Positions 85-46,282 of a stretch of 64,000 nt of DNA are shown one piece after another. Origin of the DNA: Lingula anatina (Eukaryota; Animalia; Brachiopoda); the NCBI GenBank assembly GCA_051362555.1, contig CM120644.1, forward strand, positions 12,546,567 through 12,610,566, given 5' to 3'. How positions within the stretch are numbered: the stretch's first letter is position 1; each line of letters opens with the position of its first letter. Both the position numbers and the translations under genes were made by a program. Under the pieces are notes generated by a model, which ran no database searches, was not told the origin of the DNA, and saw only the letters and a list, made by a program, of their open reading frames with translations.

Positions 85-1474
85 TGTTTTTTTTTCTATC
101 GCCAAAAAGAGCAAAAAACAAAAAAAAAAACAAAAAAAAAAAAAACAAATATTTTGCCCAAATAATTATTGAGTTTACAAGACATAAACAGTGACGGTTA
201 CATCATTATATGTTTTAAATATTAGTTCATCGTAAACATATTGTATGTTAGACACGTGTATAAGTTTTTTTAGATAAATATTTTAACACGTAGTATGAAT
301 TGTATGAGACCATGCAATCAACCTTACCGATATGGTCGGATGCTGTATGCTTCTGTCAAAATTATAAGCTTTTATTTCAAATGTAGTCCATTTGAATGCA
401 AAAAAAAAAAAACTTTTTTCACAAAATAAGCCTCAACTTTCATGATGTTCACCTTTAATTCTTGTAAATCTACCTTTGCCGTCATGCAGTATTTTCATCT
501 CAATAGTTTTATCTAAACACATGCTGACATTTCCAAAGGCCTGACGCCTTGCGCTAGTTACATTTGCCGAATAGCCAAATATACAGTAGTGGCCTTCTTT
601 ATGCTGTTCAGAATTGGTTAATTTTGCATCAAAAGTAAATGATGATTGAGTGCACTTAAATATGTATTAGTATCTTCCCCTGTACCTTTGACAGTGTTGC
701 TGTCTTTTCTAAGATTTCAAGCGAGATGTACCATTAAAGATAGACCGAGGTCCTTTTCTCATAGATCTGTATACTAAAGCTACATGTATTATACCGGTAC
801 ACTTGCAAAGGCCCTTACGTAAAAGTACGCACGATACTCCCCAACACAAGTTCGTTCCTTGCTCTTTACCTAATTAATAATAACTTTACATATATAGTTT
901 AGTTTAGTTTAGTTTATTTCACTGTAACATATGCATCCACTTGTGTGGATGAAAATGACAATATGAATACAATTTTTGTGAATATGTTATTAAACAATCA
1001 CAATGAGTAAGGATATTTAATTATTTACTATTTAAAAGAGAGATCGAGGCTCCGTACAGGCGATTCTTTTACGTAAAACGTAGGGATTAAAGTTGTCAAC
1101 TTCACAAGGCGTAAAAGTGCAACGCCAAAGTAAACCGTTCCTACTCGATGAGAAAAGGGTCTCAGTCTCGAGAAACTTGGTGACACGCCATTGCTATAAT
1201 GAATTGCAGATACACATAATATATGCGATACGAAAACTAACGGCCCCGAACTTCATTGCGTTCAAATCAGCTTACAAAACGAGTTGATATGCGATACTTA
1301 AATGTTGACTGGGTGAAAATGAACACAAAAGAAAGAGCTTCTCTCACATTTTAATGAATATGTCTTTTTGTAACCTGCATACAAATGTTTTATTCAGACC
1401 ACACAATCATTCGTAACATAGAACAAGCGTGTGAAATTAAAGCACCTTGCGGGCCAAAAATTTCTTGCAAAGCA

Positions 1475-3272
1475 ATGCTGAATATGTCCAGACTTATTCA
1501 ACACCGCCTGCTTGGGCTAGCGATGATAGGACCACCTAACAGAAAATATGGAAGATTTATCCTACTTGCACAAAACTTATCAAAGAAGATACAGCCGCCC
1601 GTATTTGTTAAACAAAGGGAAATGACGCCAGTTATCCACCTCAAGCAAGGCCTGGTGAAACAGTCATGGCGTTTTAGAAAGGTTAGTGATATAAGATATT
1701 GTTTTAAATCTTTCGTCTCCATGTGCTCATTTTCAAGTCAATAAATCCTTGTCTAAAATACTATCAAAGCAAGACATAGAGCTCTCAGTAATGTTCAATT
1801 CCAAAGCGAAGATTTGTTAAAAAAAGGTAGTACTTTTGTCTGCGATATATCATGTCATGAAGCAATTAAAGTAATTTTTGACATCTATCAGGCTTTTGAT
1901 AGTGGATATATTAATGATGGTAAGTCTGGGTCATACTGCGCTTGCAACTTTTTTGTAACCCTTTGGCAAATTCAGTCGCAAGGAGGTTGTCATAGGTTTT
2001 TAAGTGGTTGCATAATGTTGCTTACAGGTTGCAAGCTATCATTGACACATAAACATTTTTTGTGCACCGACAACAGATGCGACTGAGGATGACAAATATT
2101 GGTACCCCAATGGTTGCTTATCGGTCTTTTCTTTGTTGCCAGTAGTTCGTTATAACCAGACTAAAACCAGGCCACTTGCAACTGCACGGTTAAACAAGGA
2201 CTTAAGCATAATGAATTTCGGGGTTCGAAAGAACCGCCCCTTTTGCTGGGAAAAGGTCCACTCTGGGTAAAATTTGATCTAGGTACACGAAGTTTTTATG
2301 GAAAAAGGTCCACTTTACTGGCCAAATGTGAATAAATACAACAAGCAATATTGAATAAGTGCCGAAGTGTAAACTTTGTATTTCCGTGCTCTTTCAGCCT
2401 GTGGAATACCCTCAAATAACTGGCTCGGTTCACTGGAGACGAAAAATGCGCACCTTATTTAGGGCCTTCGACGTAAACGGTGATGGTTACTTGACAAAAG
2501 AAGATTTTGAGATGAGCGCCAGGCGTGGTTCAGAGTACATGAATCTTGATGGTAAGTGTATTTTAATAAATGTATTTTAATACACAAAATTAAATTTTTG
2601 AATATAAATAGAAATATTGGTTTCATATTGTAGGCTCGTTTGGCAATAAAAGCAATATTGTGTTTCTTTAATATTTTATCATTTATCCAGTAAGTAACCC
2701 TTTTTTATTTCGCACAGACGCGTGCACACGCATTTAACGTACAAATGTGTCTTTCAGTCAAAACAATTAAAAAACAAATATAAAAAAGGACTATTGTAAT
2801 ATACATAGTCATTGTCTATTTATATATATACTGTAATGTATACATTTCAGACGAAAACACTAAAATTCTTCTAGACCAACGCCTTATCTACTGGAGAGAT
2901 TCAATTTCTAAAGATTCGACAGGTAGGAATACAAGTAAAATATTCGAGGATCAGTTCGTGGAGAATCAGCTCGTCAACATGAACGACATCAATTTCCGAG
3001 AAATTTACTGTGATATCCTTTCTTCGAGATTTCAAATGATGGATCTTGACGGCGATGGACTTATTTCTCCAGATAAACATGCTGCTATTTTCTACAGTTT
3101 CAATATCCCTACTGAGCACTCAAAGAAAGTATTCGACATCATAGATAGCGACAGTGACGGCTTCATTACCCAAGAAGATTTCATTCACGCATATATTGAA
3201 TTTTATTTAACCGAAAATCCTGACAACAAATACAACGAGTGCTACGGTCCGCTCGTTGACAATAAAAATTGA
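1475..3272 (+). CDS. EF-hand SCP/photoprotein-like Ca2+-binding protein, copy B (intact); 260-aa form with basic leader and possible 192-aa short form
   Basis: Exons: leader 1475-1681 (GT donor, phase 0) or ATG-only 1917-1919 (ATG|GTAAGT); 2398-2551 (PVEYPQITGSVHWRRKMRTLFRAFDVNGDGYLTKED..); 2851-3272. Phases are consistent. EF loops DVNGDGYLTKED, DLDGDGLISPDK, DSDSDGFITQED; degenerate EF2 and C-terminal YGPL as in the invertebrate SCP / luciferin-binding / aequorin superfamily. Confidence 0.85.
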
Positions 3273-4886: not shown

Positions 4887-7110
4887 ATGCTGAATATGCC
4901 AAGACTTATTCAACACCGCCTGCTTGGACTAGCGATGATAGGACCAACAAACAGAAAATATGGGAGATTAATTCTACCTGCTCAAAACTTATCAAAGAAG
5001 ATAACAGTGCTCGTATTTGATAAACAAAGGGGAATGGCGCCAGTTATCCACCTCAAGCAAGGCCTGGTGAAACAGCCATGGCGTTTTAGAAAGGTTGGTG
5101 ACATTAGATACTGTGTTAAGTCATTCGTCTCCATGTGTTCTTTTTCAAGTCAATGAATCTTTGTCTTAAATAATATCAAAGCAAGACAACAATAATATTC
5201 AATTCCAAAGTCAAGATCTGTTAAAAAAAGGTGGTACTTTTGTCTGCGATATATCATGTGATGAAGCAATCAAAGCAATTTTTGACATCTATCACGCTTT
5301 TGATAGTGGAGATTTTTATGATAGCAATTAAGTCTGGGACATACTTTGCTTGCAACCTTTTTGTAACCCTTTGGCAAACTCAGTCGCAAGGAGGTTGTCA
5401 TAGGTTTTTAAGTGGTTGCATAATGTTGCTTACAGGCTAAAAGCTATCATTGACACATAAACCTTTTTTGTGCACCGACAACAAATGCGACTGAGGATGA
5501 CAAATATTGGTACCCCAATGGTTGCTTATCGGTCTTTTCTTTGTTGCCAGTAGTTCGTTATAACCAGACTAAAACTTGCAACTGCACGGTTGAACAAGGA
5601 CTTAAGCAAAATGGAATTTATAAGCATCATTATTACAGTGCTGGTTGCAATACAAATTAGATATTTAGCTATAGCAATGTATGTTTTCTTACAATCGTTA
5701 AAAAAAGAAAGCGCGTGACGAAACTAACCCGACTTCCAAGTATACAGCAGCCAGCACGCTTCCTGGTCTTTATGAAGGTTCCATTTCACTAGGTTTTCTT
5801 GTCTTCTGAGAGGGAAATAGATGTGAATTCAGCTACCGTCATAAGTTTGCAACACATATAATCTGTGCGACTTTGTGGTTACCAGTCGGCAATCGATCGC
5901 TACAGCCCTGCAGCCGTTTCCCATTTATCAAGTGGTCGCTGACAGGTTGTGTATCGCCCTGCAAACGGTGTTCGACTGGTAAACTATAGGTTGAATGTGG
6001 TTTTTAGAGGTTGCTTATACCATACATACCGCCACATTGTTGTGCAAGAAGTTGCCGATCAAAATATACCAAAGCTTCTTATTCAGCTCTCAAAGTGATC
6101 ACAAGCGACCACCAGATTTTGTGGTTGTTAAAAGGTTGTCAAAAGGTTGCAAGCACAGTTTGACCCGTGCTTTACTGGCCAAATGTGAATAAATACAACA
6201 AGCAATATAACATAAGTGCCCAAGTGAAACCTTGGTATTTCCTTGCTCTTTCAGCCTGTGGAAAACCCTCAAATAACTGGCACCGATCATTGGAGACGAA
6301 AAATGCGCACTGTATTTAGGGCCTTCGACGTAAACGGTGATGGTTACTTGACCAGAGAAGATGTAGAGATGAGCGCCAGGCGGAATTCAGAGTTCATGAA
6401 GCTTGATGGTAAACGTATTAATTTTTAATATAAATGACAATATTGGTTTCATACTAAAGGCTTGTTTGGCTATAAAAGCAATACTATATATTATGTTTCT
6501 AAAATATTTTATCATTTATCCAGTAAGTAGGCCTAACCCTTTTTATTTCGCACAGACGCGTACACACGCATTTAACGTATAAATGTGTCTTTCAGTCAAA
6601 ACAATTAAAAAACAAATATAAAAAAGGACTATTGTAATATACATAGTCTTCGATCTATTTGTATATATACTGTACCGTAAACATTTCAGACGAAAACACC
6701 AAAATCCTTCTTGACCATCGCCTTACCTTTTGGAGAGATTCAATTTCTAAAGATTCGGCAGGTAGAAATATAAGTAAAATATCCGAGGATCAGTTCGTGG
6801 AGAATCAGCTCGTCACCATGAACAACAATAATTTCCGAGAAAGTTTCTTTGATATCCTTTCTTCAAGATTTCAAATGATGGATCTTGACGGCGATGGACT
6901 TATTTCTCCAGATGAACATGCTGCTATTTTCTACGGTTTCAACATCCCTACTGAGCACTCGAAAAAGTGTTCGACATCATAGACAGCGACAGTGACGGCT
7001 TCATTACCCATGAAGAGTTCATTCGCGCATTTATTGAATTTTATTTAACCGAAAATCCTGACAACAAATACAACGAGTTCCACGGTCCGCTCGTTGACAA
7101 TAAAAATTGA
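4887..7110 (+). pseudogene. EF-hand SCP-like copy C; single 1-nt frameshift (pseudogene or homopolymer sequencing error)
   Basis: Leader exon 4887-5093, exon 6255-6408, exon 6690-7110 (421 nt vs 422 in B). One A is missing in the run at ~6962-6966; the short-form ATG|GT donor is degraded at 5318-5330. Confidence 0.75.
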
Positions 7111-8183: not shown

Positions 8184-9286
8184 ATGCTGAATATGCCAAG
8201 ACTTATTCAACGCCGCCTGCTTGGGCTAGTGACGATAGTACAACCTTACAGAAAATATGGGAGATTTATCCTACCTGCGCAAAACTTATTAAAGAAGATA
8301 GAGCTGCCCGTATTTTCTAAACAAAGGGAAATGACGCCAGTTATCCAGCTCAATCAAGGCCTGGTGAAGCAGCCACTGCGTTTGAGAAAGGTAAGTGATA
8401 ACTGATACTGTGTGTGAAGTCTTTCGACCCCATATGTACCTTTACAAGCCAATAAATTCTAATTGGCACCGATCATTGGAAGCGCAAGATGCGCACCTTG
8501 TTTAGGGTCTTCGACGTAAACGGTGTTGGTTGCTTAATAGAAGAAGATATGGAGATTTTCGGCAGACGTACTGCAGAGTATATGAAGCTTAATGGTATAT
8601 GTATTAATTTTTGTTAAAAAATGTTGGATTCGTGTTTTAATTGCAGGCCTGCTTGGTAATGAAAATGATACGTAATTGTTTCTAAACCATATTATTATAT
8701 ATTTTTCTAAACGATATTAGAAACTTATTTTATTTTTGCACAAACATTTCACTTTTATGTCATTATCAGCGAAAATCAATAAAAATATCAACCTACTCCA
8801 GCAGTATTTAAATATTCACATATATTCGCGTATTTTATTTTAAACATACGGTACTGTGTATATTTCAGTCGAAAACACCAAAATTTTTATTAACCAACGC
8901 CGCACCTACATGAGAGATTCAATTTCTAAAGATTCGACAGGAGAAAGTAAAGGCAAATTATTCGAGGATGATTTCGTGATGACCTCGTCAACATGAATGA
9001 AAGCAAGTTCCGAAAAATATCCTTTGATATCCTTTCTTCAAGATTCCAAATGATGGATATTGATGGAGATGGACTTGTGTCTCTAAATGAACATGCTGCT
9101 TTTTTCTACAGTTTCAACATCCCTTCCGAGTATTCAGATAAAATATTTGACATCATGGACGCTGACAATGATGGCTTCATCTCCAAGGAAGAGTTTGTTC
9201 ACGCACGCACTGAATTCTGGTTCACCGAAAATCCGGACAACAAATACAATGAATGCTTTGGTCCACTCATTGACATTGAAAATTGA
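8184..9286 (+). pseudogene. EF-hand SCP-like copy D, pseudogene
   Basis: Leader exon 8184-8390 is intact. A deletion at ~8461 removes the ATG exon, the acceptor and the start of the next exon. EF1 is decayed (DVNGVGCLIEED). The last exon 8869-9286 is 4 nt short (frameshift near 8978). Confidence 0.85.
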
Positions 9287-9907
9287 AACGATGTTTTCTA
9301 TTACCGGTTACCAAATACTTCAAATGATAATTCGGTTCACTAAAACGCAATATAAACTTAAATGTTGCACGGCATATTAAATATCAATATTCTAGACGTA
9401 AGTCTTATATATACTAAATATATGCGATTTATTAAACTAACAGAAACGGTTGATGTCGAAGAGGTTAAAGCACAAAATGAACAAAGTCATATTTGGATCT
9501 AGTTAAAGGACTGTTGCAACAGGACAAGTATACAAACTTACATGCAACATACAAAATGACTGTAACGATTCTTGTGGTTGATAGTGAAATTTTCTGTTGT
9601 GAGACGATAAAACATAATGTTGACGCTCGATCACTCATATAGATTCAAAATTTATATGTATTCTGATACATACCCTGTATTATATTTCAGATTGAAGCTG
9701 CACACGTGTTCTCTGACACTATAAGCTGATATTATTTTTTTTTCTATCGCCAAGCTCTAGCGATGATATTGAACTTAGTTGGCAACAGCTGTGCATCAAA
9801 CTGTATATCATATCTTTTAAAAATAAGTTTACTGCTAATGTATTTCATTATTGTACCACCAGCGTAGGCGCTGGCGGTACACATGGTTTTAGTCCCGACC
9901 CGTATGT

Positions 9908-9969
9908 TCCGCCGGCTCCTGCGGCTCCGCCGGCTCCTGCGGCTCCGCCGGCTCCTGCGGCTCCGCCGC
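9908..9969. repeat. 18-bp GC-rich minisatellite (TCCGCCGGCTCCTGCGGC x ~3.4) inside the HINE
   Basis: Direct reading; it occupies the position of the microsatellite typical of HINE/DINE-1 elements. Confidence 0.85.
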
Positions 9970-10874
9970 CAAGTCACCGTTACCGCTTCTCCTCCTAGAC
10001 GGTAAGGGCCTCCATACCCATCTCTTGGATTTAGGTCACCTATAATCTCAACTCGTTCCACGTAAAATTTGGGCTTTGTCGGTATTGGGGTCTAGGTGTG
10101 GCACTCATTGCAATGCACCCTTGTCCAAAAATGGCAAAATTAAATGCTAATTATCTCCCCTACGGAAGGAATTTTGGGAAAAATTTCTACAGACAGCTTT
10201 CCAAAAGTCATATGTGTAGATTTCATATATGCCCTTGGATTTGACCTTTGACCTTTATTTCAAGGTCAAACAGGCCAAAATTTTCAAAAAAACAAAATTT
10301 TTGCCGAAAAAAAAATTATTTGCGGCCTTATTCAGATACCACACAGACTTAACTAATAATAATTATGGAAAGTGTTACCCTTCGGGTCATCTTTCATCTC
10401 CGTGAACTTTGGGTCAATCGGTGCATTTTCACGGTAGTAGCGGCCATAAGATATCGAAACTTAAAACTGTCTCTAATTTGGGAACCGTTAATGCTAGACA
10501 CCCATTCTCTTTTGCATTTTGTAGAGCATGTAAAGCCCAACACTGGAGGTGGTCTCCGTTTTTTTGTATTCCATACCGTTTTCGAGTTACGCTGTATCAA
10601 AAAGTACATATTGGTGATGAAAGCAAAATGTGTAGTACGGTAATGGATAATAAATTTTGAATTCCGGAAAAATAAAACATAAGGCTTGGCAAAGCAGACA
10701 ACTTGTGGTCAAAAATAACATTATTTCATCAAATTTGAACATCTGGAACTTCAGAGCACCTCCCATTTCAAGAATTTTGACCAAAATGACCTTTTCTTTA
10801 TTTTAATTAATTTTTTCTGTAGGAAATTTATGGCACATTATGGTAACTCCAAAATTATAACATTTAGTCCCTTA

Positions 10875-12310
10875 TATCTCCAAAACTGGCAGAGATAGGT
10901 CCATAGTTACTATTGAAGTTGAATAGGAAGTCATATACTGGCAATCTAAATGTGACCTTAAAATTGACCTTTGACCTACTTTTCACAATGAACTGAACTT
11001 TGCAAATTTTGCTTCCCTTTTATCTCCAAAACTGGCAGAGATAGGTCCATAGTTTCTATTGAACTTGAATAGGAAGTCATATACTGGCAATCTAAATGTG
11101 ACCTTAAAATTGACCTTTGACCTACTTTTCACCATGAACTGAACTTTGCAAATTTTGCTTCCCTTTTATCTCCAAAACTGGCAGAGATAGGTCCATAGTT
11201 ACTATTGAAGTTGAATAGGAAGTCATATACTGGCAATCTAAATGTGACCTTAAAATTGACCTTTGACCTACTTTTCACCATGAACTGAACTTTGCAAATT
11301 TTGCTTCCCTTTTATCTCCAAAACTGGCAGAGATAGGTCCATAGTCTCTATTGAACTTGAATAGGAAGTCATATACTGGCAATCTACATGTGACCTTAAA
11401 ATTGACCTTTAACCTACTTTTCACCATGAATTGAACTTTGCAAATTTTGCTTCCCTTTTATCTCCAAAACTGGCAGAGATAGGTCCATAGTTACTATTGA
11501 AGTTGAATAGGAAGTCATATACTGGCAATCTTAATGTGACCTTAAAATTGACCTTTGACCTACTTTTCACCATGAACTGAACTTTGCAAATTTTGCTTCC
11601 CTTTTATCTCCAAAACTGGCAGAGATAGGTCCATAGTCTCTATTGAACTTGAATAGGAAGTCATATACTGGCAATCTACATGTGACCTTAAAATTGACCT
11701 TTGACCTACTTTTCACCATGAATTGAACTTTGCAAATTTTGCTTCCCTTTTATCTCCAAAACTGGCAGAGATAGGTCCATAGTTACTATTGAAGTTGAAT
11801 AGGAAGTCATATACTGGCAATCTAAATGTGACCTTAAAATTGACCTTTGACCTACTTTTCACCATGAACTGAACTTTGCAAATTTTGCTTCCCTTTTATC
11901 TCCAAAACTGGCAGAGATAGGTCCATAGTCTCTATTGAAGTTGAATAGGAAGTCATATACTGGCAATCTAAAAGTGACCTTAAAATTGACCTTTGACCTA
12001 CTTTTCACCATGAACTGAACTTTGCATATTTTGCTTCTCCTTTATCTCCAAAACTGGCAGAGATAGGTCCATAGTTACTATTGAACGTGAATAGGAAGTC
12101 ATATACTGGCAATCTAAGTGTGACCTTGAAATTGACCTTTGACCTACTTATTATCATGAACTGAACTCTGCTAATTTCTTTTTCTTTTAACTCCAAACCT
12201 GGCAGAGATAGGCCCATAGTTTCTATTGAAGTTGAATAGGAAGTCATATACTGGCAATTTACTGTGACCTTGGAATTGACCTTTGACCTACCTTACGATG
12301 AACTTAACTT
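10875..12310. repeat. 146-bp tandem satellite, ~10 copies
   Basis: TATCTCCAAAACTGGCAGAGATAGG recurs at 10875, 11021, 11167, 11313, 11459, 11605, 11751, 11897, 12043 and ~12188; contains the TTGACCTTTGACC motif. Confidence 0.95.
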
Positions 12311-12797
12311 TGATTGTACCATTTTTAGTTATATATATATTTTTTGCATATTTTGAAAATTCTTGTTGATTGCATTTTTACAGCTTGGCAAGCACAAGAC
12401 TGGTGGTTGTGTTCCTTATTTTGTATATGTGGGGGTCTATACGAATGCGCTTGCTCCAGCTGGTGGTACAATATTCGGAGGCGGTATCGCCTCTCTGATC
12501 CTCTAGTTAACATATGCATTTAAGCATTCTTGATGTATTTCAGCATCCTTAGGTGTTTACATGTAGCATGGTTTGCATGCGACTAATCACAGTTACTCGT
12601 ACGATTGCTTTTGAATATGTACAGTAAGATAGAAATGGACAAATTTAACCATTTTTAAATCCTTAACAAATAAAGTGACCTATCATATAAAATCATCCAC
12701 GGTGGAATGAGGGTAGAAAACTTGTCCATTCATTGAGTTTAAACTAAAAGCCGTGGCAGTACTTTGAGGTCAGTCATAAGCCACTTCTTTAAACGAA

Positions 12798-15700
12798 CTA
12801 GATTTGAGCTGCACTTCCATCGCCCTGGTTGTTGTCACTTGTGTTAGCGTCTCCGTTCTCTATGGCACGAGAAGGCTTCTTATCGCCTACGTCATCGAAC
12901 AACGCCTCGATGTAGGGCCGCAATGGCGACCAAAGCGACGGTTCCATCTCCCCCCTTTTGAGTGCGATAAGCTGTAAAAATCATAGACATAGTTGGAAAA
13001 CCAATCAAAGAAAACAGCATTAAAAAGATATTAGGCGTTTGATTGGTTGAACGCGATTCATTGGGTCCAGTCTTTGATAAGACAAACAGACCTCCAAAAA
13101 TTTTCAGAATTAATCCATACAAAACATGAAATAACTTTCACAAGTATATACGGCAACTAACATGGCGTCCATCCTCAGCATCTGTCTCTTTTTTTTTCAT
13201 GCCAAAAAAATATTTCACAGGTTTAAAAATTTTCCCTAAACCAAACAGTCAAATTCATATGTCATTTTAGAATAGTGACTTACCTTGGGAATCAAAAGCA
13301 ACAAAATCGTAGCTATGATAGCGAAGAGCGTGAAGCCAGCTATAACGCCAAAGTTGACGTTTGGCTCTTCTTGTACGAGGACACCTACTGGAACTCCGAC
13401 AACAGTCGCCAAGGCAATGATAACCATAGCCAAACCAACTTGACTGCTGTCTCCAGCATCTCTCTTCACCGACATCACCCTACAAAAAATGAAAAGAAAA
13501 TAAATACTAATATCACGTTATGTCAAATAGCAGAATAGATGGAACCGAAAAATCAATCCATGACATTGGTAGAAACTTTTTAAACATGTATGTGGGGACT
13601 ACACGGGGTACTGTACAGTAAAAAGGTTGAAAATCAACTTCAAACATTATATCAATAATTTGTTTCCATGTTGTGTCTGACGTGATTTGAAAGTGTTGTG
13701 GATGCGACAGATACATGTAGTACCGGAGTAATATAAAAAAGTCAAAATTTTATAATGAAATGTTATCTTCCCCACATAAAAAATTATAAATTTTAATTCA
13801 TTTGAGTATATAACTGTTATCTTGTAGTATGCATGATGGAGGATAAATTGGCACTTTTTGTTAGTTTGAAGGTGAAAATTTTCATGAAAAAATAAAGAAA
13901 ACTAAAAATGTGTATTTTTCCACCCAATGACTACTATAAAAAGGCTATGGTACAGTAGTAAGATGAATACCTGTTTCAAAATGTATCAATTTTCACCAAA
14001 AGTTTCACCACCAAACTTTCAAATACTAACACAATATACGTCACAATGCAAACCATGTGGAAAACAATATAATAGTATGGTGACTAAATACACTGTTTAA
14101 AATAGGTTTTTTTTCTTCGTTGGAGTATATATCACATATGGCTATGAATATGAACATTTTTCATGACTTTTTATTTATTTTTTTGCACCGAATATTTTTC
14201 CACCAAACTTACAAAACTTTCCCATATATTCCTCATAAAGTATACTTAAGGGAATGATGTTGAAATGATCACCAAATATCAAATTAATAGCTTTTTCATG
14301 GTGGTAAAATACACATCTTTTAATTCCATTTCCTCATTTAAATTGTCATCTGCAAACTAACAAAATAAGTAATGTATACTCCATTATGCAAACTACAGGA
14401 CAAGAGTTAATGCTTAAATAAAATAAGATTTATAAAGTTGTGTTTGGAGGGGGGGGGGTAAAAATTTCAAGGGGGAGTTACATTTTCATTATGAACATTT
14501 GACTGGGTAGTCACATTTTCATAATAAAAACCTGACTGGGCCGGAGTCACATTTCTGGGGGAGTCAGATTTTCATGGTACACCTGTATGTTGGATGTGAC
14601 GATGTAGATATTGGTTCACGTACCAGGTAGGCCAGACCAAGCAAACAGAGACCAGCAACAGCAGACCCTTGTACACGATAAACGCAATGGACCAGCCCAT
14701 AGCACTCCCGCTGTGACATTGGCGATAGAGAGTCTGGTACCGCACCATTTTGGCAGCATCTCGCTAATTTTGAGAAGGAACGGGAGTCATATATCCGCGA
14801 CTAACTGTGAAACAGCAGCTGAGCTAATGTACTGTTCGCACTTGTGCCACTTTTTGGTACAATATCAAAAAAGTAACAAAACAGTGTGACTTTGAAGAAC
14901 AATTACCAACTTCATAAGTAGTTGAGACCAAAAGCAATATTTTCTCTTTCACAAAGTACTTGTGCATACAAACCGTAGCGACTACCAGTGTGGGTTTACT
15001 TACAATTTCGGGTAAATGCCTATCTTTCACCACAAGTGGGTCAGTCAACTGCCAGATAAGCAACATCAGAATATCAATAACCAACAGTACGGCAACTCCA
15101 GACAGCATGCGCAGTTCTACTTGCAGACCCTGGTAAAGATATTCTGTATATAAAACTCCGAAAAGAACAACTGCAACCGTAACGTTAACGTTTTGGTTTG
15201 CCACATTAAAGATGAACGACATACATGGGTATATGTGAGGTATACGTATAGGTATACTAGTATATATGTGTGTGGTAAATGTGTGAAATAGCACAGGATC
15301 TGCAGCTGCAATTAAAGCATTTAATGTATCTTGTTTCGTTGATAATGAATGTGTCTGCGTGGGTTAATCATTGTATTTGTCTGTGTTCCTTTGCATGTCA
15401 GTGTTTTGGATTACAAGAGATGCGAAAGTCTGTTGTTCGTAAGATTTTAGTGGATGCACAACTCATATGAGGCAAAATAAAGGGTTGATCACTACAAGTC
15501 TTAGTCAACTTCTCAGTTAGATAATAACCATTGGTCGTGTCCTATATGCAGTTTGCAGGATACGACATTATCATGAACGCGACTATTCAACAGCTGCAGC
15601 AGTGTGCAAGATGTTAATAAAACGCTGCATCTTACTCAAGGCCAAAAATTAAATTATATTAAAAATTCACCCAATCCTGCCGATAACGAAAGAGGCGATA

Positions 15701-18700
15701 CACTCCCCACATCTTCAGCAGCATGGTACCAAACGACAGTGTAAACCCAGTCACAAATAGCCAGACAAAGGCATTACATGGTACATTGCTAGTCGACGAC
15801 AGCTGTGTTGCACTGCCTGGAACAAATAACCCTGGTTTTGTAATATAGCAGTGGCGGATTTAATGGGTACCAGGGGTGTCCTGACCCCTCCCCCTCTTCG
15901 ATTTCTGCTTAAAAAACGCAAAAAAAAAACATCTAGCTAAATCATAGTTCTAAACCCTACCAAATGGCGCCTTCCAAAACACCATTTTTTTCGAGGTCCT
16001 CGAGCGTGGACCTAACCTGAAGCCAAGGGAGGAGGGAGGGGGTGGTCGGCCTCGCAATTCGAGGCCTGGCAATCCCTATAAAACGGACCCCTACAAAAAT
16101 TTCTGGATAGACCCCCTGTATAGGCCTATGTTTAGTAAGTATAATACACCTAAAACAAACATGATATCTTTTTAATGCGACACGACAGAATCACAGATAC
16201 ATGTATTTAAAAATGGGCTATCATAATTCACAGATCATACAGGAGTGTGTTTCCTTAAGAGAGATAAATTGAAATCGACTTGCACGACTGCTCACCTTGA
16301 AGAATGACATTGACAGCCAGGAAGATGCATCCCAGTGCAATGACACTGTTCATCAGTGGCCATGAGTTTTGAATTAACCTAAAAATTAAATGTATTGTGT
16401 ACGTTGTGATCGTCTTTGCTGATGTGAAAGGAATGGTAGTCCTAGGAATGGAAGTCCAGGCTACAGGATCCCATATGGTTAGTATATGTTGGGGAAGGTC
16501 GTAGTATAGGAGCTTGAATATGGGACGAACGTCATCTGTACAAAGTGCTACCATTCCTGTCACACCAGTGCCTCTGAAGCCAGAAAACAGGTATAATATT
16601 TAGTGCAGTTAACCTTGATACACCCTTCTCATGTGGAAAAAACGTGCAATGATTCGTTTGTACGATATTGTGCAGATGATTGATTGAAATTTCACACTTA
16701 ACATGACACTTAACATGACAGTTATATCTACGACTTCCTGTCTACCCTGGTTCCAATACATACTGTGTCTTCCATTTGACTATCGTAACTAACATGAACA
16801 CAACAGTGAGAACTATTGATATCACAGCGATCACAGTAAAGGCTATTTTTAGTTCGTCTGCGACAACCAGTAGTTTTCGGACCGTCCTGTACCCAGATTG
16901 CGGTATATGGCCGCCTATCGAGAGAAAAACAAAACATGCCTCCATAAATGTTTAGAACGCATCGGGTGATTAATACTTAGAACTACTTGCAATGTTCAGG
17001 ACAGCTAGTCCATTTGGACAACCCCCCCCCCCCCAAAAAAAAAATTAATTAATTAATAAATTGATAACACGCAGGAGCTACATGCATGGACAACAAACCA
17101 ACAAACGGGGATACTACAAATGGCTTCAACTGTGCATCATCAGGGAAGTTTACACTTTGGCTTAAACTAATTTTTTTTCCTGCTTATGTAACTTTCCTAG
17201 CCAAAACTGGAAATTCCCCCTGTTATATTTATTTAAGCCATACGCAAGTAAATAAAGGGAGACGCAGGTTTGTGGAGATACATGTAGATCTTTGAAGACA
17301 TACTACCTGGGTTCAGACAATAAAATATTGGTGAATGAATTTTAATGTTTGGCGATCAGCACACTGAATAGGTAGAACAACCGCAGAACGCACCATGAGA
17401 ATACCACAGGTCACTAATCTTCTCCGACAACGTAATGTTCCGGGATTTCTGGTCGTAAACACCAAACAATAAAGCTGTACCGTCTGAAATCAGAAATAGG
17501 GTTCCAATTTATCAATGATTTCAGGATATAAAGAACTTTATATGTAGGGGGGCATAGATAAAGAACTGGATGCACCTTTCCTTCTTTCTCACACCCACAC
17601 ACGTAGGTAAACGCACACTCACAAACACAGACGCACACTAAAGCAATTTCTCCACTGGTGTTGTATATTTCGGCATGGGTTCATTGGCGAACTTGTTATA
17701 TTTGGTATTGTGTAACTCGTTTGCTTATCTATCTAAGCGATTAAAAAAATAATAATAATATTGTGAGTGTTTGTTTGACTGGTGGCAGTCGGGTATGAGG
17801 TGGTTGTGTGTGGCTTTATTACACTCCATCTAGATGTGTGCTGAAAACCTACTTCTTATTTGCTCCATAGACAGCCAGCTCATTCGACTTCCATGGGGTG
17901 AGAAAGACACGGGACCCTTGAAAGAGAAAAAATCTCACGATTTTACATAAGCAGTGGCGGTTGTGTGTTTGGGAGGGGGGTTAGCACGTGTGACTCCCTT
18001 AGTTTACAAGTTACTCCCTTGAAACTTTAACTATTGATACGAGGCAAAGTCTGGCAATGTTCCATCTTTGTGCCCTACATGTAAAACTCATACAAAAACA
18101 GTTTTCTTTGCAATGACAAGCGGTGCAATTTCTTATCCTTGTGCTACCACCAATACCATACAAAATAGAATTAGAAGCAAGCAACCCTTTCACTTTAAAC
18201 GTGTATCACTGGAAACGCAAAAGTAAATTTCAAAATGAAAGTTTTACACAATTATGGTAAAAATACACCAAACTCCCCATTTAGTGAATCTTGTCAACCA
18301 ACTCTTCACCTACACTATAATACATCTGCCAAACGTTGAAATACTTACCGACGCACCGAAGAAGTTGGTGCGATCCAGTTCTGGAATCAAAGCGTCCGTC
18401 ACCGTGCCGAGATCGGTGAACTTGAAGTTGGTGATTATTCTTGGCGGAAGACGAGACAGGCTCTTGTTTAAGGCCAATGCAGCCGCCCATATGGCATCAT
18501 AATTCAACTGATATAGTATTCTTCTGGTGTCGTCATTGTACCAAGCTTGTTCTTTCATTTCCCTCAAAATTTCTACAGGATCCTAAATCAATCACCCTGA
18601 GCTTCAGAGATAACTTGACACTATAACCTCTTCACTATAGCCTATCTTCATCGTGTCAAGTTACCTCTGACGAAAATAGTTTGACCTAGTTTATATAAGC

Positions 18701-21700
18701 CAATCGAATCCAAGTTTCAAAAATTTTCACCAAAGTTTGGTGAAAACGTTGATTGGTTGACCGTCAATCGGCAATCCTCGGCTGATTCCGCAAGCTCCAT
18801 ACTAACAACAAAGTGCGGAGACATCCGAGTAGTTCCGAGTGCATAACCGTACACAAAGATAGCATGGCGTCTCCTACGAGTGACTACGTGAAATAATGTG
18901 TTAAGTTATCTCTTGATTCTTTGCAAAATATGAGTATATCGGAATTGAAACCAGAGCAGTTTGAGGCCCTGCATCATTATCTACTGAGGGATGATGTCCC
19001 TGATATTCAGCCTTATCTTTGATTGGTCCAAATTTGAACAAAGCGCGCTTTGACTCGTTCGCGTTCATTGGCTAGATCGTTCAATGAGTCATTGAGTGCG
19101 GGCTTTAAATTTGATTGGCGGGCGGCGGAGGCAATCGAATGTGGTCAGAGGTAACTTGACACGATGAAGATAGGCTATAGTGAAGAGGTTAGTGTCAAGT
19201 TATCTCTGAAGCTCAGGGTGAAATCAATACACCTGTGTATATACATATATCAACAACAACGCTTATCGACAGTTTCAGTGCTCCGTAAGTTTTCATTTTA
19301 ATAGACTGTGTATTGTTAATATTATAGCTTGAAATGCGTGCACGATATGTGTGTGTGAGAGAGTTTGTGTTTGTGTGTGTGCATGGGCGTTGTGAGCCTA
19401 CAGGTATACAGGTACCTTTACTGTAAATGGGCGTTTTGGTTCATATCCAACTTCGCTGGCATGTTTAGCGTCAGCGCGGAATGTAATGAACTGCCCTTCT
19501 GCCGCTTGGACCACCTGCTCCGCGTTGCAAGAGAGTTTCCGTTTTTGGTGCATGTTGGATGCGAAGTTGCGGTAGTCTTTAACGAATTCCATCAAACTCA
19601 GCCAAACATATTTCTTTCCAATCAAGCCATATTTGTATGCCTGTTTGAATAAAAAAATTATAAGCAAACATGCAATAAAATGCAAATAAAAGCAAATGTT
19701 AGTACAATTGGAAAATGCCAAATACTACATACAATGACACTTTTATAGCATTTTCAGTCCCAAGAAGTGTAGCCAGTTACACTTGAGATTGGATTGTCGT
19801 TGTCTAGCTACCGATGTGACGGGAATGGATGTCCGCATAGAACTGTACTCCATTTCCGATTACTTTTACAGGTGGCAATTGTCCCAAATGCTAGCCCTAA
19901 CCTATAGTAATCATATGGTACCCCGGACTTCCTTTCCTAGGACTACCACTCCTGTCACACCGGTAATCCACTCGAAAACATCACCATCTGCTCTTAACAC
20001 GACAGGCAGTGTTTATAAAGCTGATAGAATATCTATAATCTGGTGGGACGTATGTTCAGCCTATAGCACTCACTGCCGTTTTAAATCTATTACCTGACAA
20101 AACACATGACAAAGCGATGAGCCCAGTCCGTCAGCGTGATGCATGATTACCCTTGCGTCCAGTTCCTAGAATGGCAGAAAAATAGTTAATTTTATATAAT
20201 AAGACCCCATTGAAACCAAAGCATGATGCATCCCTCTTGAATAGCTTAATATGGCTTAGTTTAAATCCACATTTATAATTATAAAGTCTCACCTTCAGTT
20301 TTTCCATAACTTGGCCTAGCTGCTCTACTCTATAGAATAAAGAAGTGACAATTTCTATGCCGGACTGTCTTAGCAGTATCTCCACTTCCTTCGACATCTA
20401 CTCGGAAAAGAAAAAGCAAGCACAGTGTTATTCTTAAAAAAAAAACAATATTTCTTCAAACATGAGTGCAGGTTTCGCACTCAGACACACTCACAGTAAT
20501 TCAAACGTTAAATTATAAAATTCGTTTTACTTATTCATCAAATTAATCACATGAGACTAATTTTGCATTTCATGCGTGATACACAGGCAAATAGAAGCCT
20601 AATAATACATGTAGAATCCTTTCAAAATAGAAAGAAATATTAGGCCCGTATCCAGGGGGGAGGTTCGGGGGGTTCAAAAAAACGCCCCTTTGTCCCAGGA
20701 AAAGGTTCCCTCTGGGTAAAATTTTATCAAGGTATATGAATGTTTCATGGCAAAAAGGCCCACTTTTTAAGAAAAAGACCCCCCCCCCCCTTTTGAAATT
20801 GCTGGCTACGGGCCTGTATGCTGTCAGCTTAATGGAAATGTCAGCATCCACTTTACCTCTGTAAACGGCCTCTTGTCTTCCGCCAGCAATGCCACGCGGG
20901 TCCAACCGAAACGCTTGACAAAATCCACTTCTATAGTGACAACGTCCAGCCAGGAGCCGACTGTCCGGTAAAAGTAAGGGAAGACGAGTCTTTGGGATAA
21001 AGTGGAAGACGAGCTACCGGTCGAGATCTGCAATAACCATGTATCTACAAAAGGATCGGTTGATTCTCCGCCAGAAATAAGTTGTAGTGAGCAAAGGTTG
21101 GGACATGTAAATGTGACAGTCGAAGGCCGCATTTACAACAGCAGGCTACCTAGTCCGCGGATCAAATATGGCCGACCCACTTGAATGCTTGTTGCACTTT
21201 TCCGCGGGAAATGTATTGAGTGTCTGTTACAGGGATAGGCGGCAAGCTTTTAAGTCAGTCGCCGTATTTGATCCACGGACTAGTTAGTCGGCTGTTCTAA
21301 ATGCGGCGAAGTTTACTGCATCGGAAGTTCAGAGTATCATTAGAGTAGCCTTTTCTCTGACCACAGGTGCGCTCTAGTAGTCTGAAATCGCCGATACTTA
21401 AAATGTACGTACACTAATATATCCTGATATCAGAAGGTTAACCTAGCCTGAGTTCCGGATCCAGACAAAGATTAAATCTTTTTTTTTTTTAATTAGCGCA
21501 TAAATTAAGACACTGTGATCTGATTGAGACTATAGTTAAAAGTTTTTTTAAAATTTGGCTCAGGTGCATCATACCTGTATCATCTTCAGTTTCCCCGTGA
21601 TCTCTCCTATCACATCCGTCTCCGTGACGCTGCCGTGGTGCAGCAGCATCATTACCGGCGGGTCTGTTTTTGACGTCATCAACTCTTGTAGTTTGGCCAC

Positions 21701-23704: not shown

Positions 23705-23745
<41 letters not shown>

Positions 23746-24907: not shown

Positions 24908-26369
24908 TTTTAAACGCGTAACTTCATTTAACAAGCTCGTCGCTGCACTTTGTCCGTATGACAGTGAATTGTCCTCGTCCGATTAACTTCGAGAAGGTTC
25001 ACCTGGCGCAGACGCAGACTTAAAACGACCCAGTTATGAAAGGTGATTTTAGCCTGTTTTAGCAGTTAATGCCAACTTTTTGCAGTGCAAACCAACGACC
25101 TGAAAGATATGATCTAAATGAGGCTGGGTCTTTTTTTTTTTTTTTTTTTTTTTGGAAATTATTTTGGGACTTCAGAATGATGACGCGTTGAAGACTTATC
25201 AAGACCAGTTCTTGTTTAACTGTGTAACTTTCTAATGCATCTGAGAGGACACGCATACTTTGAAATGTGCAAGTCACTCGCGTGTTTAGAGAAAAAAATT
25301 CCGCGGGCTAAGGATCCCAGCACACGTTGTTGTGAGTGCCCTAGCGTTTCATAGACACTGAGAACATGGAAAGAATTGCAAATGTATAGAAAACGTGTGA
25401 AAATAAATTGCTTGGTTATCGTTTGTTTAGCTCTTTCTTTCTGTTTACTCAGTATATTTGAAGAAGGCACACTATCATTATCTGTTGTTGCTATTGATTT
25501 TGTAAGAAATCGTACACTACCTTTGGTGGGAATGGTAAATATGATGTCAGGTTTTAAGTATGAAAATTCGTTTTTATAGTGTATTCTTCAGCTTTCCCCC
25601 CAACATTTAATGCCAAGGTCAAGCCATTGTAAACACTGCAAACACATACACGTCACGTAAGACACGCATTTGCAATCTTTATGCCTCTAGCAACATCATG
25701 AATACCATTAGAGACAATGTTTTTTTAATCAGACAAGTTTTGTACATCCAGAATGATGAAAATTCCGATGTTCTCCGCGCGGCACAGAGAGGGTTGATAA
25801 ATACAATCATTGGCTCTGGCGGAGACCAATTTGTTGTATTGTTTATCTTAGAAAGGTATTAATGACGGTCCACGGTCTCTATCCACCTCCCAAAATAATT
25901 TCAGACCAAATTTCCAAATCTTTGTCTAATCTGATATATATCTGTTTTAATCCAATTACATGAAATATTGCACCCGTTTTATAAAAAAAAGCGCCGTTAA
26001 TATTTCAAACCAAATTTACCTTGTCAAAGTTGACTACTAATATATGGATATATCATAAACTGATGCAGATCATATTTTTGTCTAAACATTTAAACCTTTT
26101 CTGGAATTAATACACATAATATCTGCTATAAGAAAACTAACGGCCTCGAACTTAATAGCGTTCTGACTACCAGCTTACAAAACGACTTGATATGCGATAC
26201 TTAAATTTGACTGGGTGAAAATGTACACAAAGAAAGAGCTTCTCCCACATTTCAATGAATATGTCTTTCTGTAGCCTGCATACAAATATGTTTTATTCAG
26301 ACCACGCTATCATTCGCAACAAGAACAAGTGTGTGAAATTAAAGCGGGCCAAAGATTCCTTGCAAAGCA

Positions 26370-27352
26370 ATGCTGAATATGTCAAGACTTACTCAACGCC
26401 GCCTTCTTGGACTAGCGACGAGAGTACAACCTAACAGAAAATATTGGAGATTTGTTCTACCTGCGCAAAACTTATCAAAGAAGATAACAGTGCCCGTATT
26501 TGATAAACAAAGGGAAATGACGCCAGTTATCCAGCTCAAGCAAGGCATGGTGAAGCAGCCACTGCGTGTGAAAAAAGTAAGTGATATCTGATACTGTGTG
26601 TGAAGTCTTTCGATCCCATGTGTTCTTTTTCAAGTCAATAAATTCTAGTCTAAAATTATATTTAACCAAAACAACTCTAAATAATTTTCAATAAGCACAG
26701 CAAAGATTGCTGAATAAAAAAATTGGCGCTATGTCTGCGACACGTTGATATGACGAAGCTAACCATCCACTATACAGCAACCCCATCTTTATTTTCGATC
26801 CGCCTCCACACTTTTTATCGAGGAGATTTTTATGATAGCAAGCTTTAATTTTTTTACTGCCAAATGAGAGAAGATTCAACAAGCATTATTCCAACAGAAG
26901 TATAACCTTGGATTTTCTCGAATCGTTCAGCCTATCGAATACCCACAGCTGACTGGCACCGATCATTGGAAGCGAGAGATGTGATTTCTAAAGATTCGAC
27001 AGGAGAAAGCAAAGGCAAATTGTTCGAGGATGAGTTCGTGCAAAATCACCTCGCCAACATGAATGAAAGCAAGTTCCGAAATATATGGTTTGATATCCTT
27101 TCTTCAAGATTCCAAATGATGGATATTGATGGAGATGGACTTGTGCCTCTAAATGAACATGCTGCTTTTTTCTACAGTTTCAAAATCCCTTCTGAGTATT
27201 CAGATGAAATATTTGACATCATGGACGCTGACAATGATGGTTTCATCTCCAAGGAAGAGTTTGTTCACGCACGCACTGAATTCTGGTTCACCGAAAATCC
27301 TGACAACAAATACAATGAATGCTTTGGTCCACTCATTGACATTGAAAATTGA
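26370..27352 (+). pseudogene. EF-hand SCP-like copy E, pseudogene
   Basis: Leader exon 26370-26576 is intact. The exon starting at 26931 reads PIEYPQLTGTDHWKREM*, because a deletion at ~26975 fuses it out of frame to the last exon and removes EF1 and the intron. Confidence 0.85.
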
Positions 27353-28982: not shown

Positions 28983-29014
<32 letters not shown>

Positions 29015-32000: not shown

Positions 32001-32278
32001 TACATACTGCGTCTTCCATTTGACGATCGTAACTAACAGGAACACAACAGTGATAACTATTGATATCACAGCTAGCACAGTGAAGGCTATTTTGAGTTCG
32101 TCTGCGACAACCAGTAGTGTTCGGACCGTCCTGTACCCAGATTGAGGTATAACGCCACCTATCGAGAGAAAAAGTATGCCTTACACACTTGCTCAGAATG
32201 CATCGGGTGATATTACATTTAAAACTATTTACAATGTTCAAGACAGGTAGTCCACTTGGACGACCCCCCCCCCAAAAA

Positions 32279-32352
<74 letters not shown>

Positions 32353-45350: not shown

Positions 45351-46282
45351 ATGGCAAGCTTTAAATTATTTTACTGCCAAATGTGACAAGATTCAACAAG
45401 CAATTACGACAGAAGTATAACTTTGTTTTTTTTTTAATCGTTCAGCCTATCGAATACCCACAGCTGACTGGCACCGATCATTGGAAGCGCAAGATGCGCA
45501 CGTTATTTAGGGCCTTCGACGTAAACGGCGGTTACTTTACAGAAGAAGACATGGAGATGACCAGCAGACGTACTGCAGAGTATATGAAACTTGATGGTAT
45601 ATGTATTAATTTTTTGTTTAAAAAATGTTGGATTCGAATTTTAATTGTAGGCCTGCTTGGCGATGAAAATAATGTAATTGTTTCTAAAACATTTTATTAT
45701 ATTATTTTTCTAAAACATATCCGAAACCTATTTTTGTACAAAAAATTCACGTTGATGTCATTATCAGCCAAAATCAATTAAAATATCAACCCACTTCGGT
45801 AGTATTTAAGCATTTATTTATATCCACGTACTTTTTTTAAACAAACTGTATATATTTCAGACGAAAACACCAAAATTTTTCTAAACCATCGCCGTACCTA
45901 CATGAGAGATGTGATTTCTAAAGATGCGACAGGAAAAAGTACTAGCCAAGTATCCGAGGATGAGTTTGTGCAGAACCTCCTTGTAAACTTGAATGAAAGC
46001 AAGTTCCGAGAATTTTGGTTTAATATCCTTTCTACAAGGTTTCAAATGATGGATCTTAATGGAGATGGACTTGTGTCTCCAGAAGAGCACGCTGCTCTTT
46101 TCTACGGTTTCAACATCCCTTCTGAGCATTCAGATAAAATATTTGACATCATGGACACTGACAATGACGGCTTCATCTCCAAGGAAGAGTTTGATCACGC
46201 GTACACTGAATTCTGGTTTACCGAAAATCCTGACAATAAATACAATGAATGCTTTGGTCCACTCATTGACATTGAAAATTGA
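45351..46282 (+). CDS. EF-hand SCP/photoprotein-like copy F (open frame, ~191 aa, no leader exon)
   Basis: ATG 45351-45353 followed by a putative GC donor (GCAAGC); exons 45446-45596 and 45861-46282. One-codon deletion in EF1 (DVNG-GYFTEED); EF3 DLNGDGLVSPEE and EF4 DTDNDGFISKEE are canonical. The start exon is inferred and expression is uncertain. Confidence 0.72.

What the first reader, a model, noticed from the sequence alone, without database searches (positions are those of the whole stretch)
1475..1919. Hidden 69-codon leader exon: candidate mitochondria-targeted photoprotein/SCP-like Ca2+ binder, with an alternative ATG-only first exon
Seen: upstream of EF-hand copies B, C, D and E is an ATG-to-GT-donor segment of exactly 207 nt (1475-1681, 4887-5093, 8184-8390, 26370-26576). 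It has no stops or indels although the sequence just 5' of the ATG has indels, and its phase-0 donor fits the phase-0 acceptor of the PVEYPQ exon. The peptide (MLNMSRLIQHRLLGLAMIGPPNRKYGRFILL...SWRFRK) has 14 K/R and 1 acidic residue in copy B. Copy B also has ATG|GTAAGT at 1917, a calmodulin-style start-codon exon. Known: Arg/Leu/Ser-rich, acid-poor amphipathic N-termini are typical mitochondrial presequences, whereas classical SCPs and aequorin are cytosolic. Inference: one gene could make a 260-aa organellar and a 192-aa cytosolic isoform, i.e. a compartment-switchable Ca2+ buffer or ligand carrier.
Basis: partly seen in the sequence, partly recalled or inferred. Interest (0 to 1): 0.8.

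Follow-up and report, generated by a model that had tools for sequence, protein, structure and literature searches.

The report
Mitochondrial import tag on calcium binders
The extra first exon is real and spliced, and it likely encodes a mitochondrial import tag on a large brachiopod family of calcium-binding proteins whose known relatives are thought to work in the cytosol; RNA reads gave no support for the proposed tag-free second form of this gene.

Summary
The 207-nt exon is real. Junction 1681^2398 is crossed by 104 RNA reads in 3 of 7 runs laid, though the reads come from a paralog or allele, not copy B letter for letter. It is not hidden: four RefSeq Lingula anatina SCP-like models carry the same leader. 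Of 44 Lingula family proteins, 27 have basic, acid-poor leaders of 25-90 aa. Of the 23 outside the window's clade, 22 keep an Arg at one aligned site, in a motif like a mitochondrial peptidase cut site. A mitochondrial presequence is therefore likely (about 0.7). Against it, the window's clade has Gln at that site, amphipathicity does not beat shuffles, and import was not tested. The ATG-only exon at 1917 is unsupported: no junction was listed, depth just upstream is zero, the site is ATA or GC in paralogs, and it abuts a transposon-like end. The fold is closest to Nereis SCP, not to photoproteins. Copies C, D and E are broken; B has a Lys in place of an EF-hand III ligand. Verdict: new variant of a known kind (precedent: Clytia clytin2); the isoform switch is not supported.

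The parts
1395..1474 (+). Approximate 5' untranslated part of exon 1. 1460-1462 is ATT here but ATG in the expressed paralog and in RefSeq models (74-aa leader).
   Evidence: RNA depth begins in bin 1360-1400 and rises in 1401-1441; 1462 T>G in 21 of 21 X9 reads; no ATG in the 85 nt before 1475; start bound approximate
1475..1681 (+). Copy B leader exon, 69 codons, net charge +13, predicted mitochondrial presequence; its last about 6 residues belong to the folded domain
1917..1925 (+). ATG|GTAAGT motif inside intron 1, proposed ATG-only exon; not seen used
   Evidence: no 1919^2398 joint listed in 7 runs; depth 0 at 1852-1892 in 4 of 4 runs; ATA in C and E, GC donor in E and F
1926..2218 (.). 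Left part of an element with terminal inverted repeats, present in intron 1 of B and C and absent from E and F
   Evidence: C arms 5325-5382 and 6120-6177, 72% complementary; alignment; reads with shared differences at 1925-2009; transposon label is inference
2220..2316 (.). Dispersed repeat inside intron 1, very deep in all RNA runs
2398..2551 (+). Copy B exon 2 (PVEYPQ..., EF-hand I)
   Evidence: joints at both ends
2851..3272 (+). Copy B exon 3 (EF-hands II-IV, stop). EF-III loop position 12 is Lys (3075-3077), whereas covering X7 and X8 reads have G at 3075, giving Glu.
4887..5093 (+). Copy C leader exon; gene C (exons 6255-6408, 6690-7110) has a frameshift in the last exon
8184..8390 (+). 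Copy D leader exon; the exon-2 acceptor and first codons are deleted and exon 3 is frameshifted
26370..26576 (+). Copy E leader exon; gene E (acceptor 26931) has an internal deletion joining exon 2 to exon 3
45351..46282 (+). Copy F: no leader found upstream; ATG|GCAAGC at 45351; exons 45446-45596 and 45861-46282 are open, with a one-codon deletion in the EF-I loop
   Evidence: tblastn finds only four leader copies in the window; homology to E stops about 18 nt upstream of the ATG

Best explanation
The 207-nt segment is the spliced, coding first exon of a Nereis-type sarcoplasmic calcium-binding protein (SCP) gene, and it likely encodes a mitochondrial presequence that would carry the three-EF-hand protein into the matrix, where it would act as a Ca2+ buffer or sensor. 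Shown: splicing of this exon in the family, the open frame, the basic and acid-poor make-up, the SCP fold, and the same kind of leader across the Lingula family. Inferred: import by the presequence route and cleavage by the processing peptidase. In most paralogs the cut would fall at the conserved R-x-[L/F/I/V/M] site about 13 residues before P-x-[DE]-Y-P. In the window's clade, where that Arg is Gln, it would probably fall at R-[E/G]-M-[T/A] nine to ten residues upstream. The leader is the ordinary and probably the only first exon of this clade. The ATG|GT at 1917 is most likely an unused intron motif beside an inserted element. The window holds a tandem array that turns over fast: C, D and E are broken, and B is open but has a weakened EF-hand III.
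For: Junction 1681^2398: 104 reads in 3 of 7 runs. Four RefSeq models have the same leader, 40-52 of 69 residues identical to B. 27 of 44 Lingula family proteins have leaders of 25-90 aa with net charge +5 to +17, while the mature domains are acidic (-7 to -21 in the 23 scored). Arg at one aligned column in 22 of 23 non-window-clade leaders (leader background 0.108), followed by G/S/E, then L/F/V/I/M, then mostly T/S/K. This fits the R-2/R-3 motif as described in passages of PMC3673636. The short leaders (25-31 aa; P0021, P0056-P0063) end in R-x-F-[S/T]-type sites. No signal-peptide core: best 11-residue hydropathy 1.14, best 19-residue 0.77. AlphaFold2 leaves residues 1-68 of P0002 at pLDDT under 50, with the domain confident. 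Leader sequences drift (dN/dS 0.89 against 0.42 for the B/C core) while charge is kept. Best PDB match is Nereis SCP by profile (E 2e-21 and 3e-38) and by fold (TM 0.89 by target length). Precedent: Clytia clytin2 is mitochondrial through an N-terminal leader (passages of PMC4043110).
Against: The window's clade lacks the family Arg: 10 of 11 rows have Gln and 1 has Leu at the aligned site. B's hydrophobic moment does not beat shuffles (43rd percentile). No trained predictor was available and no import or localisation data exist. The leader alone found 0 hits among 1.84 billion representatives, no Pfam family and no usable Atlas hit. The paralogs share ancestry, so 22 of 23 is not 22 independent events. 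dN/dS does not single out frame 0 (frame 2 gave 0.69, reverse frame 2 gave 0.53). The RNA reads differ from B at fixed positions (for example 3075 in 64 of 64 X7 reads and 101 of 101 X8 reads), so B itself is not shown to be expressed.
Confidence: 0.7

Rival explanations
1. One gene, two compartments: B uses the 207-nt exon for a 260-aa organellar form and an ATG-only exon at 1917 for a 192-aa cytosolic form.
For: ATG|GTAAGT is a full consensus donor in the right phase and is rare: 2 sites in 128 kb of both strands, one being this site and the other B's exon-2 donor. The two copies with open downstream frames (B, F) both have ATG here, and broken copies C and E have ATA. F has no leader in the window. 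Six RefSeq models in other clades start at a Met just before P-x-[DEN]-Y-P. Clytia GFP2 has an alternatively spliced targeting exon (passage of PMC4043110).
Against: No 1919^2398 joint was listed in any of 7 runs (listing needs 3 reads in a run), against 104 leader junction reads. Depth is 0 at 1852-1892 in 4 of 4 runs at 84% likeness. The donor is GC in E and F and disrupted in C, and it abuts an inverted-repeat element. 0 of 9 window-clade RefSeq models that reach this region start at M-P-[VI]-E-Y-P. The last leader-exon residues are confidently placed on the domain. Only 6-30% of each run was read, and B's own allele was not seen, so absence is not proven.
Confidence: 0.1
2. In the window's clade the leader is no longer cut off or imported. 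It is a retained basic tail that binds membranes, nucleic acid or the protein's own acidic EF-hand domain.
For: The family's cleavage-site Arg is replaced. The leader is long (69-74 aa) and not clearly amphipathic. Leader +13 against a core with 21 K/R and 35 D/E. Five RefSeq models of this clade start at the internal Met with only 20 leader residues.
Against: An R-[E/G]-M-[T/A] site is kept in 6 of 6 full leaders scored, nine to ten residues upstream. Acidic residues stay rare despite near-neutral drift. AlphaFold2 does not dock the leader on the domain.
Confidence: 0.15
3. The protein is a small-ligand carrier or photoprotein, like Renilla coelenterazine-binding protein, sponge okadaic-acid-binding protein or clytin, rather than a plain Ca2+ buffer. 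This is compatible with mitochondrial targeting.
For: Renilla CBP and OABP2 are the second and third profile hits. The large, fast-diverging family (paralogs 37-81% identical to P0002) and substitutions in EF loops of some members suit ligand diversification.
Against: Nereis SCP ranks first in every comparison. Aequorin, obelin and clytin structures match at TM 0.58-0.69 and 15-18% identity, against TM 0.89 and 29% for SCP. No ligand was tested. I know of no bioluminescence in Lingula (recalled, not searched).
Confidence: 0.15
4. Copy B is itself a decaying, unexpressed duplicate, so the leader's role applies to its paralogs but not to this locus.
For: Three neighbours are broken. B has Lys at EF-III position 12, Val for the family Asp in G-S-D-H-W, and lacks the upstream ATG. 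Covering reads differ from B at those sites.
Against: B's frame, splice sites and stop are intact. The runs may come from a different population, so allele mismatch does not show silence.
Confidence: 0.35

Closest known systems
Nereis diversicolor sarcoplasmic calcium-binding protein (PDB 2scp, 1q80)
   Same: Best profile and fold match; EF-hand loops I, III and IV with a degenerate II; similar C-terminal G-P-L-V end.
   Different: The solved chain is 174 aa with no leader; SCPs are regarded as cytosolic (recalled). The Lingula proteins add 25-90 basic residues in front. About 29% identity.
RefSeq Lingula anatina SCP-like proteins XP_013398981.1, XP_013398983.1, XP_013398984.1, XP_013399004.1
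   Same: Same leader and same domain; B's core is 85% identical to XP_013398981.1.
   Different: They start five codons earlier (the ATG is ATT in the window) and keep Glu at EF-III position 12. They are automatic models; their names say nothing about targeting.
Clytia hemisphaerica clytin2 (PMC4043110, passages read)
   Same: An aequorin/SCP-superfamily EF-hand protein sent to mitochondria by an N-terminal leader; no leaderless variant of it was found either.
   Different: Clytin2 is one luminescent photoprotein paired with GFP2, its leader is not a separate exon, and that paper found such targeting only in hydrozoans. Here it is a family of dozens of SCP-like genes in a bilaterian with the leader on its own exon.
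Renilla coelenterazine-binding protein (2hps, 2hq8) and okadaic-acid-binding protein 2 (4wri)
   Same: Next-best matches, same fold, similar H-x-x-K-M-R-T start of helix A.
   Different: They hold a known small ligand and have no leader in the solved chains; no ligand is known here.

Membership tests
Cleavable mitochondrial presequence | At the N-terminus of the translated protein | tested here: met
   First exon by RNA depth, spliced in frame to exon 2; no ATG in the 85 nt upstream in B
Cleavable mitochondrial presequence | Net positive charge, few acidic residues | tested here: met
   B: 14 K/R, 1 acidic; 27 of 27 long Lingula leaders +5 to +17
Cleavable mitochondrial presequence | Amphipathic helix near the N-terminus | tested here: inconclusive
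   B moment 0.36, 43rd percentile of shuffles; other Lingula leaders range from the 10th to the 97th percentile; disordered in AlphaFold2
Cleavable mitochondrial presequence | R-2/R-3 processing motif at the family's aligned site | tested here: not met
   Met in 22 of 23 paralogs outside the clade, but Gln or Leu in 11 of 11 window-clade rows; a candidate R-[EG]-M-[TA] lies upstream in 6 of 6
Cleavable mitochondrial presequence | No secretory hydrophobic core | tested here: met
   Best Kyte-Doolittle 11-mer 1.14 and 19-mer 0.77 in B
Cleavable mitochondrial presequence | Drives import and is removed in mitochondria | not testable with these tools
   Needs localisation, import assay or N-terminomics; no trained predictor on hand
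Nereis-type SCP | Compact four-EF-hand fold, best match to SCP | tested here: met
   P0002 model: Foldseek rank 1 is 2scp, E 6e-10, rmsd 2.2 A; profile rank 1
Nereis-type SCP | Ca2+-binding loops in EF-hands I, III and IV (recalled definition) | tested here: inconclusive
   Three loop motifs in P0002, P0003, P0005 and P0038; B has I and IV, but Lys at position 12 of III
Nereis-type SCP | Soluble cytosolic protein without leader (recalled) | tested here: not met
   Spliced 69-74 aa leader
Ca2+-regulated photoproteins (aequorin, obelin, clytin, berovin) | Closest relationship to photoproteins by sequence or fold | tested here: not met
   Photoprotein structures rank 15th or lower by fold at 15-18% identity; berovin is 5th by profile at E 2e-9 against 2e-21 for SCP
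Ca2+-regulated photoproteins (aequorin, obelin, clytin, berovin) | Binds 2-hydroperoxycoelenterazine and flashes on Ca2+ (passages of PMC7590018) | not testable with these tools
   Cavity residues were not mapped residue by residue; needs a reconstitution assay
Calmodulin-style ATG-only first exon | Exon ending in ATG spliced to the next coding exon | tested here: not met
   No 1919^2398 joint listed in 7 runs; zero depth at 1852-1892
Calmodulin-style ATG-only first exon | ATG and donor conserved in paralogs | tested here: not met
   ATG in 2 of 4 copies, ATG plus GT donor in 1 of 4

The most novel reading that the evidence does not exclude
Lingula has turned a Nereis-type SCP into a family of dozens of mitochondrial-matrix EF-hand proteins: a dedicated, tissue-restricted protein Ca2+ buffer or sensor inside mitochondria of a calcium-phosphate-shelled animal. 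Leaderless sister genes that start at the Met of K-K-M-P supply cytosolic counterparts, so the compartment switch runs between paralogs rather than between exons. A second unnamed family of 58 related proteins with the same kind of leader suggests that mitochondrial SCP-like proteins are wider than hydrozoan clytin2.
Probability: 0.3. Interest if true: 0.6.

Novelty: new variant of a known kind. Interest (0 to 1): 0.35.

Why it matters
SCPs are treated as cytosolic buffers (recalled). The one mitochondrial relative I found in print, clytin2, was judged restricted to hydrozoans (PMC4043110). A review stresses that mitochondrial matrix Ca2+ buffer power still needs quantifying (passage of PMC11550887). 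If the Lingula leaders are presequences, a bilaterian has an expanded family of matrix EF-hand proteins that can be tested at once with leader-GFP fusions and import assays. The exon itself is already in public gene models and the more striking one-gene switch is unsupported, which limits the surprise.

Tried and rejected
No whole genome was held, so copies outside the window could not be counted. The run search listed no RNA holder; the nine rows were raw-read runs added by species label, which is no evidence either way. Seven of the nine were laid; X5 and X6 were not. The leader alone gave 0 hits in the 50%-representative library, no Pfam family and no usable Atlas hit; these blanks show neither novelty nor absence. 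I considered that another frame of the 207 nt is the real one (frame 2 gave lower dN/dS, 0.69) and rejected it: it has 1-3 stops in every copy, and RefSeq and the junction phase agree with frame 0. I considered a secretory signal peptide and rejected it for lack of a hydrophobic core. I first read the RNA depth at 1870-1956 in X1 as a hint of the ATG exon; finer bins put it at 1893-1974, with differences shared among reads over the inverted-repeat end. I first took X1/X2 exon-2 reads for copy F; their letters match no window copy checked (B, C, E, F). The copy-F row in the tree was mis-spliced by a coordinate error of mine and is disregarded; the correct F frame is and the tree was not rerun. 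Paper searches for SCP with 'mitochondrial targeting', with 'mitochondrial' and 'presequence', and with 'mitochondrial matrix' and 'EF-hand' returned 0 papers each. The Lingula genome paper's main text has 0 occurrences of 'EF-hand', 'sarcoplasmic' or 'mitochondri'; a 2026 Lingula shell-proteome paper has 0 of 'sarcoplasmic' or 'mitochondri'. Supplements were not read, and subscription papers are outside the library. Look-ups of earlier scan notes found nothing relevant. No complex prediction was run, since no binding claim is made.

Full report
Observation. The four 207-nt ATG-to-GT segments are at the stated coordinates and are open in frame 0. They have no gaps, while the 190 nt upstream has 7 gap events. 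Their nucleotide identity (0.879) is no higher than the flank's (0.875), and pooled dN/dS is 0.89 against 0.42 for the B/C core. The window alone therefore shows frame retention, not residue conservation. B joins to 260 aa with the leader and 192 aa with the proposed ATG-only exon. Only B is whole: C has a frameshift in the last exon, D has lost the exon-2 acceptor and is frameshifted, and E has an internal deletion. A further copy F has no leader in the window.

The exon is real and already annotated. All six hits to B's last exon are Lingula anatina SCP-like proteins. Four RefSeq models of 255-263 aa carry the same leader, starting five codons earlier; 40-52 of 69 residues match B. Nine RNA runs were offered by species label and seven were laid, 6-30% of each being read. 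Junction 1681^2398 (GT..AG) is crossed by 38 reads in X7, 41 in X8 and 25 in X9; none was listed in X1-X4, where coverage of this gene is low or absent. Coverage starts near 1395-1400, so this is the first exon. The reads are mostly 90-99% alike and differ from B at fixed sites: G at 1462 in 21 of 21 X9 reads, which restores the upstream ATG, and G at 3075 in 64 of 64 X7 and 101 of 101 X8 reads, which gives Glu where B has Lys in EF-hand III. The splice is thus shown for a close paralog or allele, not for B's own sequence.

The ATG-only exon is not supported. No 1919^2398 joint reached the listing threshold (3 reads in a run) in any of the 7 runs. Depth at 1852-1892, where its 5' untranslated part would lie, is zero in 4 of 4 runs at 84% likeness. 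The aligned site reads ATG|GT in B, ATA with a disrupted donor in C, ATA|GC in E and ATG|GC in F. In B and C it abuts an element with terminal inverted repeats that E and F lack, and the reads at 1893-2015 carry shared differences over that element. None of the 9 window-clade RefSeq models that reach this region starts at this point. In its favour, the motif is rare (2 sites in 128 kb, counting itself), and the two copies with open frames, B and F, are the two with ATG. I give it about 0.1.

What the leader is. Searches returned 44 Lingula family proteins; some may be alleles or isoforms. Of these, 27 have leaders of 25-90 aa with net charge +5 to +17, 5 start at an internal Met with 20 leader residues, 6 start at a Met just before P-x-[DEN]-Y-P, and 6 are truncated or fused and were left out. 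Among the 23 long-leader proteins outside the window's clade, 22 have Arg at one aligned column, followed by a small residue, a hydrophobic residue and mostly Thr, Ser or Lys. This matches the R-2/R-3 processing motif described in passages of PMC3673636. The paralogs are related, so this is one inherited feature kept under divergence, not 22 independent cases. The window's clade, a supported group in the tree (97/100, F row disregarded), has Gln (10 of 11) or Leu there, and an R-[E/G]-M-[T/A] site nine to ten residues upstream in 6 of 6 full leaders. The leaders lack a signal-peptide core, and B's hydrophobic moment does not beat shuffles. AlphaFold2 on P0002 leaves residues 1-68 under pLDDT 50, and the 71-80 block averages 89, so the last residues of the leader exon belong to the mature domain. 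A second, unnamed family of related EF-hand proteins also has such leaders: 58 with 30 or more residues before the domain, median net charge +6; 39 of 58 have a loose R-x-(x)-[Y/F/Q/H]-S motif but only 5 the strict R-x-[Y/F]-S. The Atlas's best feature hit for P0002 is a 296-aa arthropod SCP-like cluster (score 0.95), whose N-terminus I could not inspect.

What the domain is. Nereis SCP is the best match by profile (E 2e-21 and 3e-38) and by fold (TM 0.89 by target length, 29% identity). Renilla coelenterazine-binding protein and okadaic-acid-binding protein follow; photoprotein structures rank 15th or lower at 15-18% identity. Passages of PMC3570280 place Nereis SCP just outside the Renilla proteins and photoproteins, which fits. 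Most paralogs scored have three EF loop motifs; B has two plus a Lys-substituted third.

Mechanism. Shown: a basic, disordered-predicted leader on its own first exon, spliced in frame to an acidic three-EF-hand SCP domain, in a fast-turnover tandem array. Inferred: import by the presequence route, cleavage near the end of the leader, and work as a matrix Ca2+ buffer or sensor (about 0.7 for targeting; buffer versus ligand carrier untested). Rivals are a retained basic tail in this clade (0.15), the ATG-exon switch (0.1), a ligand-carrier role (0.15, compatible with targeting), and B being a dying copy (0.35, also compatible). The six leaderless RefSeq models each group with leader-bearing paralogs that have K-K-M before the domain; they may be cytosolic paralogs or incomplete models, and I could not see their DNA.

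Novelty. Mitochondrial targeting of this superfamily has a precedent in Clytia clytin2, which its authors found only in hydrozoans (passages of PMC4043110). Three searches for mitochondrial SCPs returned 0 papers, and term look-ups in two Lingula genome papers found no mention in the main text. Supplements and subscription journals were not seen. Papers seen as passages: PMC4043110, PMC3673636, PMC3570280, PMC7590018, PMC13425148, PMC4595640 and PMC11550887; others as listings only. I rate it a new variant of a known kind, interest 0.35: the exon is in public models, the targeting is a good but untested prediction, and the switch is unsupported.

Noticed in passing
window 8464-26105, 26974-41244, 45469-58042: Three tandem copies of a unit of about 13-18 kb, each with an SCP gene's 3' part and minus-strand exon-like ORFs (for example 24680-24982) that look like a class C, GABA-B-type receptor gene (label recalled, not tested).
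   Followed up: no
window 42244-44484 (-): 746-aa open frame that looks like a LINE reverse transcriptase, lying between unit 2 and copy F (label recalled, not tested).
   Followed up: no
window 10868-12312: Tandem array with a period of 146 nt, about ten copies.
   Followed up: no
window 1460-1462: All four window copies have ATT where RefSeq models and 21 of 21 X9 reads have an upstream ATG that adds five residues, including a Cys.
   Followed up: partly
window 2398-2466, runs X1 and X2: Exon-2 reads (depth 7-9) of a paralog that matches none of copies B, C, E or F, with leader depth only 0-1.5; their 5' partner was not seen, probably too divergent to lay.
   Followed up: partly
window 3525 to 1450, runs X7 and X8: Four reads join the 3' region back to just before the leader with 9 letters between; possibly read-through between tandem copies in the sampled animals.
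   Followed up: no
window 2220-2316: Dispersed repeat in intron 1 with RNA depth up to about 2100 per direction, far above the gene.
   Followed up: no
window 45351-46282: Copy F is leaderless yet open, with ATG|GCAAGC and a one-codon deletion in the EF-I loop; homology to E ends about 18 nt upstream of the ATG, suggesting a 5' truncation.
   Followed up: partly
proteins P0015, P0016, P0017, P0020, P0042, P0044: Six RefSeq models start at a Met right before the domain and each groups with leader-bearing paralogs; true cytosolic paralogs or incomplete models.
   Followed up: partly
proteins P0025-P0027, P0047-P0051 and many of P0064-P0133: A large unnamed family of related EF-hand proteins, about 235 aa, with presequence-like leaders mostly ending in [Y/Q/H]-S-T-K/Q; source organisms not named.
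   Followed up: partly
window 1757-1918: Open frame in intron 1 with a weak DUF7635 match (E 0.028, 14 bits against a cut-off of 27); no RNA support beyond depth 0-2, taken as chance.
   Followed up: partly
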